Assembly: GCA_012295275.1 (NCBI GenBank)
Contig: CM022675.1
Span: 13,950,001-14,014,000, forward strand
DNA: 64,000 nt
DNA from: Chrysomallon squamiferum
Lineage: Eukaryota > Animalia > Mollusca
Direction: 5' to 3'
Both the position numbers and the translations under genes were made by a program. Shown here piece after piece: positions 10,671 through 55,453 of the stretch (positions are counted from its first letter, which is position 1; the number at the start of each line of letters is the position of its first letter). The notes beneath the pieces are model-generated. The model was not told the DNA's origin and did no database searches. It worked only from the letters and a program-made list of their open reading frames with translations.

Positions 10671-11974
10671 ATAAATAAAATAAAATAAAATAATAACAAA
10701 TATAATAATAAAAAAAAAAAAAAAAAAATTAAAAATTAAGATTTACAAGAGAAAAAAGAAAAAAGAACTAATATATATACACATACATACATACATACAT
10801 ACATACATATACATATACATAAACATATAATTAAAAAAAACTGAGTTATATGTTAAAATGCTCGTTTTAAAGGACTGAATTTTTTTTTTAAAAATTAAAA
10901 TGTTCTCAAATAACAAACTTCTTTTATATATATATATAAATATATAATCTACCTAGACCATATAATAAAATATATACAAATAATGAGAAAATGAAAAAAA
11001 ATATATATATATTGAAAAAAAAAAAAACTTCATCTTTAAAAAACATAAATAAACAAAAACAAATAACAACTGAAGAATACATTTTGAGAATCAAAACGAA
11101 CCCCCCACCACTATTGCTCAGAAACATTTATATAAAGCACTATTAATTTGTAAGTTGAAAATCAACATACTTAGAAAACAGAATATTCTAACAAACATAT
11201 ATAGATACCACATAGAGATAAATCAGATACGACATAAAAAAATATATTCATCAGTATTTTAGTAAATTATTCATTCTTTCTTTCTCCCGTCGTTCATTAT
11301 TTACTGTGTTTTTCTTCCTGTCACATTCTTTCTGCTTCTAAATGTAGTGTACAAAAACATACTGTAGAACCATAAATAGAAATTACACATAAAGCACATT
11401 TACAAAAACTGCAAAGTCAAGCATTATATTTTACAAAATAAATAATGTACTGCAAGACTGCAGAAATTATTACATATATATATATATATATTAAAAACAA
11501 AGTCATTAAAAAACACAATGCAATACATTTATTTATAATGTTATTAGAAATATATACTGAACAAGGGAAGGGATCTACAATATTTGAAATGCTTACGTGG
11601 AGACAGTAAAACAGTAAGCAATAAAACAGTTAAATAAAACTGGTATGTAAACAGTTTACTGCAGTAAAATCATATTAGATGAAACACCTCAATCTGATAT
11701 CTCACACACACACAAACACATACACACACACACGCGATCACACACCCAAACAGCACATCAGAGCAGTGCACAGAAAAGATACACACCATAAATTAGAATG
11801 ATTAACTCTACAGATCTATCTTTACTCTGATGTAACTTTTACATAAATGTAATATAATTATTAGAATAAATTAAATATAAAACGTTTATTTATCTATATG
11901 TTATTTATTAAATTACTTTTGATCTTGATATGAATGCCAGTAAATAAATAAATAAGTATCACATATAATGAATG

Positions 11975-12135
11975 TAATCGTGCGTAACCGGGAAAAGGGA
12001 CGTAAGTGTACAAAATAATAATCTCGAGGAATCACGCGCGATTTTGAATCACGCGATTAAAATGGCGGCTTGTTGCTAGGCGATTGTCGCAGCGCATATT
12101 CAAAGGGAAAACACCGAGAAGGACTGGTTAGTTAA
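11975..12135 (+). promoter_or_regulatory. CpG promoter/first non-coding exon, copy A1 (YY1-type AAAATGGCGG)
   Basis: AAAATGGCGG at 12059-12068 within a CpG cluster, followed by a GTTAGT donor-like site at ~12127. Conserved in front of four gene copies. Confidence 0.6.
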
Positions 12136-13237
12136 TGGTTTCTGTTTTGGAGATAAAGGTATACTTAATTTGTTTTTTCATATTTAGTTGTATTTTTATA
12201 GTATGCCACTGTATTTATAGGTCATGAGGATGAGGTTTGTGACTCTTAGACTGTGTGACACTGAGTCGACTGACACTGACAGTCAAATAATGGTGGTTTA
12301 AAGAAAAGTTTTTATTTTTACACAAAACTGAAAATACATTTTGAGAATCAAAACGAACGTCCCACCACTATTGCTCAGAAACATTTATATAAAGCACTAT
12401 TAATTTGTAAGTTAAAAGTCAACATACTTAGAAAACAGAATATTCTAACAAACATATATATATATATATATTCATCAGTAATTTTAGTAAATTATTCACA
12501 TTCTATCTTTCTCCCGTCCTTCGTTATTTACTGTGTTTTTCTTCTTGTCACATTCTTTCTACCTCAGAATGTAGTGTACAAAAACATACTGTAGAACCAT
12601 AAATAGAAATTACACAAAAAGCACATTTAGAAAAACTGCAAAGTCAAGCATTATATTTTACAAAATAAATGATGTACTGCAAGACTGCAGAAAAATAAAA
12701 GTATATTTGAATACTTTTGGTAATTATTACATTTATATATATATTAAAAACAAAGTCATTAAAAAACACAATGTAATTCACTGTGCATTGACATTTATTT
12801 ATAATGTTATTAGAAATATATACTGAATAAGGGAAGGGATCTACAATATTTGAAATGCTTACGTGGAGACAGTAAAACAGTAAGCAATAAAAACAGTTAA
12901 ATAAAACTGGTATGAAAACAGTTTACTGCAGTAAAATCATATTAGATGAAACACCTCAAATTGATATCTCATACACACACAAACACACACACACACACGC
13001 GATCACACACCCAAACAGCACATCAGAGCAATGCACAGAAAAGATACACACCATAAATTAGAATGATTAACTCTACAGATCTATCTTTACTCTGATGTAA
13101 CTTTTACATAAATGTAATATAATTATTAGAATAAATTAAATTAAAACGTTTATTTAACTATATGTTATTTATTAAATTACTTTTCATCTTGATATGAATG
13201 CCAGTAAATAAATAAATAAGTATCACATATAATGAAT

Positions 13238-13385
13238 TTAATCGTGCGTAACCGGGTACAGTGACGTAAGTGTACAAAATAATAATCTCGAGGAATCACG
13301 CGATTAAAATGGCGGCTTGCTGTTAGGCGATTGTCGCAGCGCATATTCAAAGGAAAAAAAACCTAGAAAGAATTGGTTAGTTAAT
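13238..13385 (+). promoter_or_regulatory. CpG promoter/first non-coding exon, copy A2
   Basis: TGACGTAA at 13262 (CRE-like), AAAATGGCGG at 13306-13315, GTTAGT donor at ~13376. Confidence 0.6.
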
Positions 13386-52851: not shown

Positions 52852-53118
52852 CTATATCAATAATTTATACTAGAAGGAAAATCTAGATAAGAGTGACAGC
52901 ACTTACAATTTGTGTGTCAATGTATGTTTTTATGTATTGTGTCTGTGTGTGCATGTGCATCATTCCATGTTGGTAATCTCACAGTGAATGACAGAACAGT
53001 ACTAATGACTACTGTGATGTGTATCATGTTATTTGTTAAACAGGTAGAGAAAAGAAAAGTTTTAGTTTTTAACTTGCAAGTTTTTATAACTTCATTTCCA
53101 AACACAACATTTCTGTTA
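52852..53118 (-). pseudogene. Inverted fragment of NLR-like exon 3 plus intron
   Basis: Reverse complement aligns with 54668-54930 and encodes NRNVVFGNEVIKT. Confidence 0.8.
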
Positions 53119-54157
53119 ATGGACTAAATAATAATAATAATAATAATAATAATAATAATAATAATAATAATAATAATAATAATAATAATAATAATGATGA
53201 TTATGATGATGATAATAATATAGTAATAGTATTAATATGAAGAATACATTATATTTACTTCAGCGGACAATTAAAATAATTATTAGGAATAACTAATGTA
53301 ATTATTATATCAACTACAGAGGAAAAGATGTTACTTTGTATTAGTATTCTGATAATTAGTACATTTACTACGAAACTAAGATATAACTTAGAATAACTAT
53401 TGTGATAATTATTATATTTATTATAACTCTAATATAGTTAGTATATGTATTGTCATAATTATTACATTCACCAGAAAACTAAGGTATAAGTTAATACAAC
53501 TATTCTAATTGTTAATATATTTGCAATAAACTAGAGTATATCTATGGATGACTGTTGTGATAATTATTGTTTAGACATAATTTGGTACAGCAACTGAGGA
53601 AACATCCTTAAAAAGCTTTGTTAAAATTATCAGTTTATTGTTATAAAATGTTTCGAATAAACTGATTCTAATATGATGTAAGAGTAATTAATTACAACAA
53701 TATTGTTTTCACATCAGCAGTGTTGTGATAATTATGTTTTCATGACTATTTTTATATAACAATCTAACATCACTATTTAGAAAATGAGGACTTTTATTAA
53801 AACCTATTTAGATTCTATTATTTTATAAGGCATTTCAGGATTATATTTATGAAATAAAAGCTGAAAATGCAGTCGGAGCTGTTTTCACTTCAGCCAGTGC
53901 TCAACAACTGATACATGAAATAGTATGCACTGTTTGTGGGTAGACGTATATGAAATATCACTTGTTGTTAATGAGGAAAGAGTAGACCATGAAGTGATGA
54001 CAGAGGGTTTCTCTCTTATTTTTCTTTCTGTTCCCTGAATTTTCCTTATTCTTATGTCTGACCCCATATAACAGCAAATACAATGTATTGAATAAAACAT
54101 TTATTTTCTTTCCTCTACTTTAAAAATCATTAAATTATTTGTTACAGCTGAACCAAT

Positions 54158-54708
54158 ATGGATGACAGAAAAGAGAGTTAAACATTTTCATCTAATGTCA
54201 CAGAGGTTTCTTCCTCAGAAATTATAACAAAATTATTTATATCTGTAATAACGAAGTCTTTCAATTCTTGTTTAAATTATTATTATTATTATTATTATTA
54301 TTATTATTTATTAAGCTTTGAATTGACAGTTTTTTGTTATGTATTACTAATAAATTAACAATCAAAATATTTTTTCTAGCTTTTGTTTCGAAATACAAAC
54401 TTGTTACTGTTTGATTGTATAATAAGTTAACGATATTAAACACATTTTATAAACATAAACTTTTATTGTTATATTCAGAAATACTGTTAGGACAGACTAT
54501 TAATAGTGTTCAGTGTCATATTCTATATGTAGATAAAATTGGTTTTAGAAATTATTTTTGTAAATTATGAATTTAAGTAATTTCTTTTACTCAGTTGGAA
54601 GAACACAACCAGTGGTAGAACATAAATGTAAATATCAGCACAGTTCAGAATTACCAGGCGTGTCTAATAACAGGAATGTTGTGTTTGGAAATCAAGTTAT
54701 TAAAACCA
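54158..54708 (+). pseudogene. Copy F: 5' fragment (exon 2 with an early stop; intact 114-nt exon 3)
   Basis: TACAG acceptor, ATG 54158 MDDRKES*. Exon 54595-54708 (TCAG..GTAAGT) encodes VGRTQPVVEHKCKYQHSSELPGVSNNRNVVFGNQVIKT. No downstream NTPase seen. Confidence 0.75.
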
Positions 54709-55453
54709 GTAAGTTAAAAACTGAAAGTTTTCTTTTCTCTTCCTGTTTAATAAACAACAGAATACACACCACAACGGTCATTAGTACTTTTCTGTCATTC
54801 ACTGTGATATGACCAACATAGAAAGATGCACACGCACAGACACAACGCATACAAACATATATATGGACACACAAATTGTAGTATTGTAACTCATCTAGAT
54901 TTTCCTTCTAATATAAATTATTGATATAATTGAAGTCAATATATCTATCATTATTATCACTTCCAAACATTGAAATATAGTACAATGAACATAATAATAA
55001 TAATAATAATAATAATAATAATAATAATAATAATAATAATAAGAACAATAACAGTGCATAAGTAACAACAGTAATAACAAACAAATAGTTGCAGTTTTGA
55101 TAATTATTATATTTAGGATAAAACAAAAATGTTACTTTGTATAACTATTCTGATGATTAGTACATTTACTACAAAAACTAAGATAAAACTTTAGAATAAC
55201 TATTCTGATCATTATTAGATTGCTGATATACTAATATATATATATAATGTATGGTAGTATAGCTATTGTTATAATTAAATTGACTAGAAAACTAAGATAT
55301 AACTTAGAATAACTATTGTGATAATTATTATATTTAGTAGAAAACTAAGGTATACGTTAATATAACTATTGTAATAGTAAGGTAATAAATTATTGATACT
55401 TATTGTTATTTTTCCTCTATGTCCATATTTCATGCAATCTTTCTGTTCTTTGA

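What the first reader, a model, noticed from the sequence alone, without database searches (positions are those of the whole stretch)
11068..54930. Tandem array of NLR-like nSTAND3-ankyrin genes undergoing birth-and-death evolution
Seen: about six paralogous units with a shared promoter, exon 2, exon 3, micro-exon and a large exon carrying STAND motifs (Walker A/B, T-x-R, GFP, FxHxS) plus ankyrins. Known: STAND NTPase plus C-terminal superstructure repeats is the NLR architecture (ANK/TPR/WD variants in fungi and bacteria). Inference: a lineage-specific invertebrate intracellular immune-receptor locus that lacks LRRs and a canonical death-fold, with rapid duplication and decay.
Basis: partly seen in the sequence, partly recalled or inferred. 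Interest (0 to 1): 0.8.

Follow-up and report, generated by a model that had tools for sequence, protein, structure and literature searches.

The report
Decaying snail STAND-ankyrin receptor cluster
This is a row of mostly broken copies of a gene that likely encodes an intracellular immune sensor in a snail, and one copy is still transcribed and spliced and would make a shortened protein that keeps the ATP-binding switch but has lost its sensing repeats.

Summary
The array is real: six paralogous units (A-F) plus a promoter duplicate lie head-to-tail at 11068-54930. The NTPase is nSTAND3 (91 bits, cut-off 27), and its model matches STAND proteins. Its nearest relatives are nSTAND3-ankyrin proteins of Gigantopelta and Haliotis. 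No unit encodes a full-length receptor. B, D and E have deleted the NTPase, F is a fragment, C is broken throughout, and all five ankyrin tracts are frameshifted. Unit A differs. Two RNA runs splice its exons. The window's exon 3 is out of frame, but all four runs carry in-frame alleles, which would give a 407-409-residue protein: a short N-terminus plus a complete STAND module without ankyrins. Evidence that selection keeps this frame is modest (P 0.007-0.09) and partly contradicted by flat codon-position divergence. Many paralogous contigs in RNA keep segments that A lost. A RHIM-like motif in exon 3 is a lead only. Immune function is inferred from architecture. Verdict: a birth-and-death cluster of a widespread, little-studied mollusc STAND-ankyrin family, with one expressed sensor-less copy.

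The parts
11068..12326 (+). A0: tandem duplicate of promoter, exon 1 and start of intron 1 only
   Evidence: 88.4% over 1305 columns to 12326-13575; promoter 16-mer at 12052
13299..13407 (+). Unit A promoter block and non-coding exon 1 (start not mapped; donor after 13407)
   Evidence: 16-mer; loose end of X9 RNA contig before 16274 matches the end of this exon (table 7, alignment)
16276..16382 (+). Unit A exon 2, ATG at 16286, 97 coding nt, phase 1
   Evidence: GT..AG joint in X8 and X9
16988..17064 (+). Unit A exon 3: 77 nt and out of frame in the window; 78 nt in X8 and X4, 72 nt in X9 and X1 (both in frame); ends in a VxxG-N-x-V motif
   Evidence: (tables 4, 5)
17577..17609 (+). Unit A micro-exon 4, 33 nt
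   Evidence: joints in X8 and X9
17842..18863 (+). Unit A exon 5, open part: complete nSTAND3 module (NBD, helical domain, winged helix); stop at 18861-18863 after a 32-nt deletion
   Evidence: PF20720 E 6.6e-26; model pLDDT 94.5
18864..21330 (+). Unit A decayed helical linker and ankyrin remnant (deletions of about 261, 47 and 28 nt against C, further frameshifts and stops, about 0.9 kb non-coding interruption)
   Evidence: RNA contigs cover 18876-20050
23217..30775 (+). Unit B: promoter, exon 2 (ATG 25933), clipped exon 3, NTPase deleted at 27164/27172, broken ankyrins 27400-28780
30933..38280 (+). Unit C: no promoter block; exon 2 (ATG 32196), exon 3, three micro-exon copies (33253, 33474, 33670), NTPase 33880-34775 with altered Walker A and a 219-nt deletion of Walker B and sensor 1, longest ankyrin tract 35780-38280, about 22 frameshifts and stops
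41794..45231 (+). Unit D: promoter, exon 2 (ATG 44437), then a deletion into about 120 codons of broken ankyrins
45469..52244 (+). Unit E: recent copy of B with the same NTPase deletion; broken ankyrins 48700-50260
   Evidence: 89.8% over 4721 columns to B
52847..53124 (-). Inverted fragment of exon 3 and intron 3
   Evidence: 83.9% to 54662-54934
54149..54930 (+). Unit F: exon 2 with an early stop and a 114-nt exon 3 (54595-54708) bearing the clearest VxxG-N-x-V motif; nothing downstream

Best explanation
This is a tandem array of gastropod nSTAND3-ankyrin genes, likely NLR-like immune sensors, in which no copy as assembled encodes a full-length protein and one copy (A) is transcribed and spliced and is predicted to make a sensor-less STAND protein. 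Shown: duplication, including copying of an already NTPase-less unit (B to E), deletion and frameshifting; splicing of A's five exons; in-frame exon-3 alleles in 4 of 4 runs; all STAND motifs kept in A. Inferred: full-length family members elsewhere in the genome work as switches in which the ankyrin array binds a ligand, the STAND module exchanges nucleotide and oligomerises, and the clustered N-termini pass the signal on (in relatives a fused HEPN or caspase; here possibly a short RHIM-like motif in exon 3). Unequal crossing-over makes and breaks copies. A's product (about 69 N-terminal residues plus about 340 of STAND) has its stop in the last exon, so it would likely escape nonsense-mediated decay (established rule, recalled). 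It would most likely act as a ligand-independent modulator or decoy that joins oligomers of full-length paralogs. Odds by step: STAND-ankyrin birth-and-death array 0.9; immune role of the family 0.65; A's short protein kept by selection 0.4.
For: nSTAND3 91.3 bits against cut-off 27.2. The 9 best VIA rows are all STAND proteins over nearly the whole model, e.g. MalT Z 14.5 (rmsd 4.5, 277 aligned), NRC2 14.4 (4.3, 282), NOD2 13.8 (4.2, 280). A nests among G. aegis paralogs (SH-aLRT 96, quick tree). 29 of 34 top representatives scanned carry ankyrins. Of 30 homologs scanned out of 54 with a long N-terminus, 12 have HEPN_DZIP3 above cut-off, 2 SAM, 1 Ig; P0005 has a caspase. Three GT..AG joints in both RNA runs, and both alternative exon-3 alleles and a 9-nt allele in exon 5 keep the frame. 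Against C, unit A has no gap in 17842-18855 and 7 in 18856-19800; lesion test P 0.007-0.09 by count. 15-18 distinct contigs per run stack on Walker A in RNA and DNA, and RNA loose ends carry sequence that A deleted.
Against: A versus C divergence is nearly flat over codon positions (0.17/0.15/0.19 and 0.28/0.20/0.20). Polarised replacements favour A in the 5' part in 6 of 6 outgroups but only 1 reaches P<0.05, and the six are not independent. Allelic variants are 7 replacement to 4 silent, P 0.24. A's branch is long (0.75 against 0.27-0.43 for its closest G. aegis neighbours). Exon 2 is also open in dead units B, C, D and E, so an open 5' part is not unique to A. No contig at 96% or better covers 18732-18833 in any of 4 runs, so the stop at 18861 is not confirmed outside the window and no single contig links A's two halves. 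Both RNA runs come from one study. No functional data exist here.
Confidence: 0.6

Rival explanations
1. Unit A is a transcribed pseudogene. Its 5' half is open only because it was recently taken from a working paralog by unequal crossing-over or gene conversion, or has not yet been hit; the short protein has no role.
For: Flat codon-position divergence, and third positions are also lower in the NTPase (0.19-0.20) than downstream (0.27), as conversion would give. The window's own exon 3 is frameshifted. Dead units also keep exon 2 open. B was duplicated to E after losing the NTPase, so copying here does not need function.
Against: All ten motif residues checked are kept. The three coding lengths seen in other individuals (exon 3 of 78 and 72 nt, a 9-nt deletion in exon 5) are in frame. 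Four splice junctions remain in use. C's NTPase took 3 gaps and a stop over a similar length.
Confidence: 0.35
2. Unit A is normally a full-length gene, and the window shows a rare broken haplotype or an assembly join of an intact 5' half to a dead 3' half.
For: The window's 77-nt exon 3 is seen in 0 of 4 runs, and 18732-18833 has no close cover in 4 of 4. An earlier AI note on another piece of this genome also reports a frameshift as assembled (unchecked).
Against: An X8 RNA contig spans 18876-19120 with 3 differences and no gap, across the large deletion at 18953, at a depth (8.1) like A's 5' contigs (6.8-11.7); in the window that frame ends at 18972. Near-identical contigs of the dead 3' half are in X3, X5, X8 and X9. 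The tool warns that a filter removes records, so the hole proves nothing.
Confidence: 0.1
3. The family is not an immune receptor but a STAND-ankyrin scaffold or sensor with another role (stress, development), or a mobile-element derivative.
For: No recognised effector domain in the window's N-terminal exon 3; G. aegis relatives are named 'uncharacterized' or ankyrin-like; the top fold match, MalT, is a metabolic regulator.
Against: HEPN, caspase and SAM fusions in relatives; nSTAND3 is the NTPase of antiphage Avs5 (10.1101/2025.07.08.663546, passages); a spliced five-exon gene with its own promoter block does not look like a transposon; transposase-type ATPase IstB matches only at E 0.018, below cut-off.
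Confidence: 0.15

Closest known systems
Annotated nSTAND3-ankyrin proteins of Gigantopelta aegis (e.g. LOC121387578, LOC121387078, XP_041375010.1) and Haliotis spp.
   Same: 43-48% identity over the STAND module, the same order of STAND, helical linker and ankyrins, no Pfam effector at the N-terminus of those scanned in full; six G. aegis entries share one 42-Mb contig.
   Different: They are annotated as long intact proteins; here every copy is broken or truncated. None has a tested function that I found.
Bivalve HEPN_DZIP3-nSTAND3-ankyrin proteins (Pecten maximus XP_033739422.1, Ylistrum balloti XP_060076262.1); oyster STAND/HEPN/ankyrin expansions (PMC8195603, passages)
   Same: Same NTPase family and ankyrin C-terminus; lineage-specific expansion.
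   Different: They carry an enzymatic effector; the window's genes have only about 69-120 low-complexity N-terminal residues.
Bacterial Avs5 (SIR2-nSTAND3-repeats; PMC11897194 and 10.1101/2025.07.08.663546, passages)
   Same: nSTAND3 NTPase, NBD-HD-WHD core, helical repeat sensor; model aligns to 9jap at Z 12.4 (rmsd 3.3, 181 aligned).
   Different: No SIR2 domain, ankyrin rather than TPR-type sensor, 12% identity. In EfAvs5, deleting the sensor abolishes activity, which argues that A is not a constitutive trigger.
Fungal STAND-ANK/TPR/WD NLRs with N-terminal amyloid motifs and Branchiostoma RHIM-NACHT-repeat proteins (PMC4262963, passages and section 6)
   Same: Short N-terminal motif, STAND, non-LRR repeats; exon 3 of A and F has a VxxG core followed by N-x-apolar.
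   Different: NTPase is nSTAND3, not NACHT or NB-ARC; no Pfam RHIM hit; no partner gene with the same motif was found in the window.
Canonical animal NLRs (NACHT-LRR with CARD, PYD or DEATH)
   Same: STAND fold (NOD2 Z 13.8, NLRP3 Z 13.3).
   Different: NACHT score below cut-off, no LRR, no death fold.

Membership tests
nSTAND3 (PF20720) | Score above Pfam gathering cut-off | tested here: met
   91.3 bits against 27.2, profile 2-154 of 155
STAND NTPases | Walker A, Walker B with two acids, sensor-1 T-x-R, GxP, winged-helix motif | tested here: met
   All present in unit A and conserved in 31-43 of 46 aligned rows; Walker B and sensor 1 deleted in C
STAND NTPases | NBD, helical domain and winged-helix fold | tested here: met
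   Predicted model, pLDDT 94.5; 9 best VIA rows are STAND proteins, Z 12.7-14.5; Foldseek top hit NRC1 NB-ARC, E 1.9e-7
STAND NTPases | Nucleotide binding and ligand-driven oligomerisation | not testable with these tools
   Needs protein work
NLR-like receptor (STAND plus C-terminal repeats in one protein) | STAND and repeat sensor in one reading frame | tested here: not met
   0 of 6 units in the window; met by 29 of 34 relatives scanned
Canonical NLR (NACHT or NB-ARC) | NACHT or NB-ARC above cut-off | tested here: not met
   NACHT 21.6 against 26.7; NB-ARC 16.6 against 23.5, Walker A only
Canonical NLR (NACHT or NB-ARC) | LRR sensor and death-fold or TIR effector | tested here: not met
   Repeats are ankyrins; exon-3 peptides have no such hit; exon 2 was not scanned, but A's whole N-terminus is about 69 aa
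RHIM / amyloid-signalling NLR | VxxG or IxxG core with following Asn (PMC9387487, PMC4262963) | tested here: inconclusive
   Present in A, F and the inverted piece, first residue Ala in C, clipped in B and E; literature pattern 1 of 32 close homologs against 0.91 shuffled; one of six pattern tests gave P 0.02, with a pattern chosen after seeing the data
RHIM / amyloid-signalling NLR | Pfam RHIM match | tested here: not met
   0 of 4 exon-3 peptides and 0 of 3 homologs at E<=10; short motifs are easily missed
RHIM / amyloid-signalling NLR | Amyloid formation and a partner with the same motif | not testable with these tools
   No whole genome; needs fibril assays
Avs5 (AVAST type 5) | N-terminal SIR2 NADase | tested here: not met
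   No room for it in the spliced N-terminus; no Avs model among PADLOC hits, best PDC-S73 at E 4.8e-12
Birth-and-death multigene family | Tandem duplicates of mixed age with pseudogenes | tested here: met
   75-97% identity among units; 5 of 6 dead
Birth-and-death multigene family | Surviving intact members in the same genome | tested here: inconclusive
   Many expressed paralogous contigs keep segments lost in A, but no full frame was recovered

The most novel reading that the evidence does not exclude
Molluscs have a large NLR-like family built on the Avs5-type nSTAND3 NTPase with ankyrin sensors, invisible to NACHT/LRR surveys; in this snail lineage it signals through a small amyloid-like exon, and decaying arrays give rise to expressed sensor-less STAND proteins (unit A) that selection keeps as regulators of the full-length receptors.
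Probability: 0.2. Interest if true: 0.75.

Novelty: new variant of a known kind. Interest (0 to 1): 0.45.

Why it matters
An Aplysia survey using NACHT and LRR domains found only 4 NACHT proteins and 1 NLR (PMC9334734, passages), and APAF-1 is reported lost in molluscs (PMC11463336, passages). A large nSTAND3-ankyrin family would be missed by such surveys and could fill the intracellular-sensor role. The G. aegis genome paper lists ankyrin-repeat proteins among expanded immunity-related families (PMC7895826, passages); whether those are this family was not checked. This locus adds a mapped exon structure and a testable case of an expressed sensor-less copy. By itself it is largely pseudogenes, which limits its weight.

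Tried and rejected
No whole genome is held, so intact paralogs could not be listed. A search for homologs of similar length found none among 3,775 candidates; this is weak, since the representative search lists short ankyrin-less entries (H. rubra 406 and 462 aa, G. aegis 252 aa), which may be annotation artefacts. The PDB sequence search with the whole alignment was swamped by ankyrins. RHIM tests: Pfam negative; regex on 79 N-termini 7 against 3.5 and 4 against 1.8 shuffled; profile from four window motifs 5 of 34 and 3 of 46 at P<=0.05, mostly unconvincing matches. Four copies of F's exon-3 peptide gave no answer in complex prediction (score 0.02). The careful tree did not finish; the quick tree of 44 rows is cited. 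Summed contig depth at Walker A is about 40-70 times single-copy depth, but the tool says this is no copy number; I use it only as a hint of many copies. The uncovered stretch 18732-18833 is not taken as absence. Only unit A was laid with reads, so expression and lesions of B-F were not checked outside the window. Literature: 'nSTAND3' (5 papers), 'PF20720' (4), 'novel STAND NTPase' (5; with ankyrin and mollus 1), NLR+gastropod+ankyrin+NACHT (3), DZIP3+HEPN+ankyrin (5), RHIM+STAND+mollus (141, 20 listed), G. aegis+ankyrin+expan (4), truncated-NLR terms (1). None of the listings or passages seen describes a mollusc nSTAND3-ankyrin family; supplements were not read and most subscription papers are not in the library. 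Earlier-findings look-ups by sequence and by words gave nothing.
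Full report
Observation. Self-comparison shows six head-to-tail units and a promoter duplicate between 11068 and 54930. A0 (11068-12326) copies only the promoter and exon 1. A (12326-22900) has all exons. B (23217-30775) and E (45469-52244) are 89.8% identical over 4.7 kb and share one deletion that removes the micro-exon and the whole NTPase, so E was copied from an already NTPase-less unit. C (30933-38280) lacks the promoter block and has three micro-exon copies. D (41794-45231) jumps from intron 2 into the last ankyrins. F (54149-54930) is exons 2-3 only. 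A 16-base promoter block occurs five times against 0.01 expected. Gap-free identity among the older units is about 75-83%.

Identity of the NTPase. The open frame 17817-18863 scores 91.3 bits on nSTAND3 (cut-off 27.2); NACHT and NB-ARC stay below their cut-offs. Walker A, Walker B, sensor-1 T-x-R, GFP and FIHQS are intact and conserved in 31-43 of 46 aligned rows. The model is confident (pLDDT 94.5, pTM 0.89). Its nine best structural matches are STAND proteins, led by MalT (Z 14.5, rmsd 4.5, 277 aligned), NRC2, NOD2 and NLRP3; Avs5 follows at Z 12.4. The tool notes that Z under about 13 is weak for helical proteins, so the weight lies on the uniform identity of the top rows and their full-length cover.

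Relatives. The search of cluster representatives gave 1,210 proteins at E<=0.001. The best are Gigantopelta aegis (43-48%) and Haliotis (about 30-35%); named distant ones are scallops, Solemya and Sinanodonta. Unit A nests among G. aegis paralogs in a quick tree, so the host is likely a gastropod of that kinship. 29 of 34 top representatives scanned carry ankyrins. Of 54 homologs with 90 or more N-terminal residues, 30 were scanned: 12 HEPN_DZIP3 above cut-off, 2 SAM, 1 Ig, 1 DUF4559, and no CARD, DED or DEATH listed. One abalone protein has a caspase. The family is therefore mollusc-wide among the names seen, with variable effectors, which is the main ground for an immune reading.

Decay. Frameshift-aware alignment finds about 10 lesions in C's NTPase and linker and 11-12 in its ankyrins, 10-12 in B, 14-16 in E, 2 in D, and about 8 in A downstream of 18852; some stops are consequences of a nearby shift. 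No unit holds STAND and ankyrins in one frame. Only unit A was checked against reads, so single-base lesions in B-F could include assembly errors; the large deletions are unlikely to be.

Unit A is expressed. Nine of 11 listed runs hold 12900-19900, two on record as RNA, both of one study. Both RNA runs show three GT..AG joints linking 16382 to 16988, 17064 to 17577 and 17609 to 17842, and an X9 loose end matches exon 1; the X8 contig starts inside intron 1 at 16091. In the window exon 3 is 77 nt and breaks the frame. X8 and X4 have 78 nt, X9 and X1 have 72 nt, and X9 also has a 9-nt deletion in exon 5; all keep the frame. With the window's stop at 18861 the product would be 409 or 407 residues (three fewer with the 9-nt allele): about 69 low-complexity residues and the whole STAND module, no ankyrins. 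No close contig covers 18732-18833 in any of the four runs, so that stop is unconfirmed. An X8 RNA contig, however, crosses the large deletion at 18953 with three differences and no gap, and in the window that frame stops at 18972, so that allele would also be sensor-less if the contig belongs to the same transcript and the stop is not among its differences (two of the three are listed elsewhere). At 85% likeness 15-18 contigs per run stack on Walker A, and RNA loose ends at 18855-18857 and 19042 carry sequence that A has deleted. Other family members are thus transcribed, though none was recovered whole.

Is A's frame selected? For: no gap in A against C over 17842-18855 but seven afterwards; P 0.007-0.09 for the lesion split, by how lesions are counted; fewer A-specific than C-specific replacements in the 5' part with all six outgroups (9:23, 11:23, 11:22, 9:20, 15:37, 12:17) and near parity downstream. 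Against: only one of those six contrasts is significant; codon positions diverge almost equally; allelic variants are 7 replacement to 4 silent (P 0.24); A's branch is long; dead units also keep exon 2 open. Conversion or crossover from a working paralog would give the same picture. I put selection on the short protein at 0.4.

N-terminal motif. Two earlier AI notes on other pieces of this genome describe STAND-ankyrin genes with RHIM-like small exons. Here exon 3 ends in a VxxG-N-x-V motif in A, F and the inverted piece, with Ala at the first place in C and a clipped form in B and E. This fits the published core loosely (PMC9387487 passages; PMC4262963 section 6). Pfam gave no RHIM hit and enrichment tests on homologs were mostly negative. 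It stays a lead.

Mechanism. Shown: the structure of the array, STAND sequence and predicted fold, splicing, in-frame alleles. Inferred from STAND biology (PMC8195603 and PMC11897194, passages): full-length members bind a ligand through ankyrins, swap nucleotide, oligomerise and cluster their N-termini. A would supply the oligomerising core without a sensor. Because sensor deletion abolishes EfAvs5 activity, a decoy or modulator role is more likely than constant activation.

Novelty. The layout is a known kind (STAND plus superstructure repeats; oyster STAND, HEPN and ankyrin expansions are noted in PMC8195603). It is not a canonical NLR and not Avs5. Ten library searches showed no description of a mollusc nSTAND3-ankyrin family (listings and passages only).

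Noticed in passing
window 6186-7631 +: Intact single-frame rhodopsin-family GPCR (7tm_1, E 2.3e-44) in a 45-49% GC patch, upstream of the array.
   Followed up: partly
window 39032-39286 -: 84-codon frame between units C and D with a hydrophobic, signal-peptide-like stretch near its start; no Pfam hit above cut-off, no Atlas hit.
   Followed up: partly
window 30400-30775 and 51839-52244: A less AT-rich block at the tail of B and E that looks like the promoter and first exon of another gene on the minus strand, carried along in the duplication; no Pfam hit.
   Followed up: partly
window 31950-32150 +: Unit C has unrelated, more GC-rich sequence where other units have exon 1; weak DUF5480 match below cut-off.
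   Followed up: partly
   Followed up: partly
window 36926-38031, 27550-28145, 48858-49392: Ankyrin tracts grew by 229-231-nt and about 198-nt internal duplications, 75-94% alike; B and E share a recent 229-nt repeat.
   Followed up: no
window 43275-43441 and 44691-44857: A 167-nt intron-2 block is duplicated (94.6%) into intron 1 of unit D.
   Followed up: no
window 1-600, 1140-1893, 55449-55713, 58473-63700: Satellite-like and dispersed repeats outside the array.
   Followed up: no
P0013, P0050, P0129: Relatives with two or three nSTAND3-ankyrin modules in one annotated protein; may be fused gene models of tandem copies.
   Followed up: no
P0010, P0012: Two G. aegis paralogs begin with a hydrophobic, membrane-anchor-like stretch, absent from the window's genes.
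   Followed up: no
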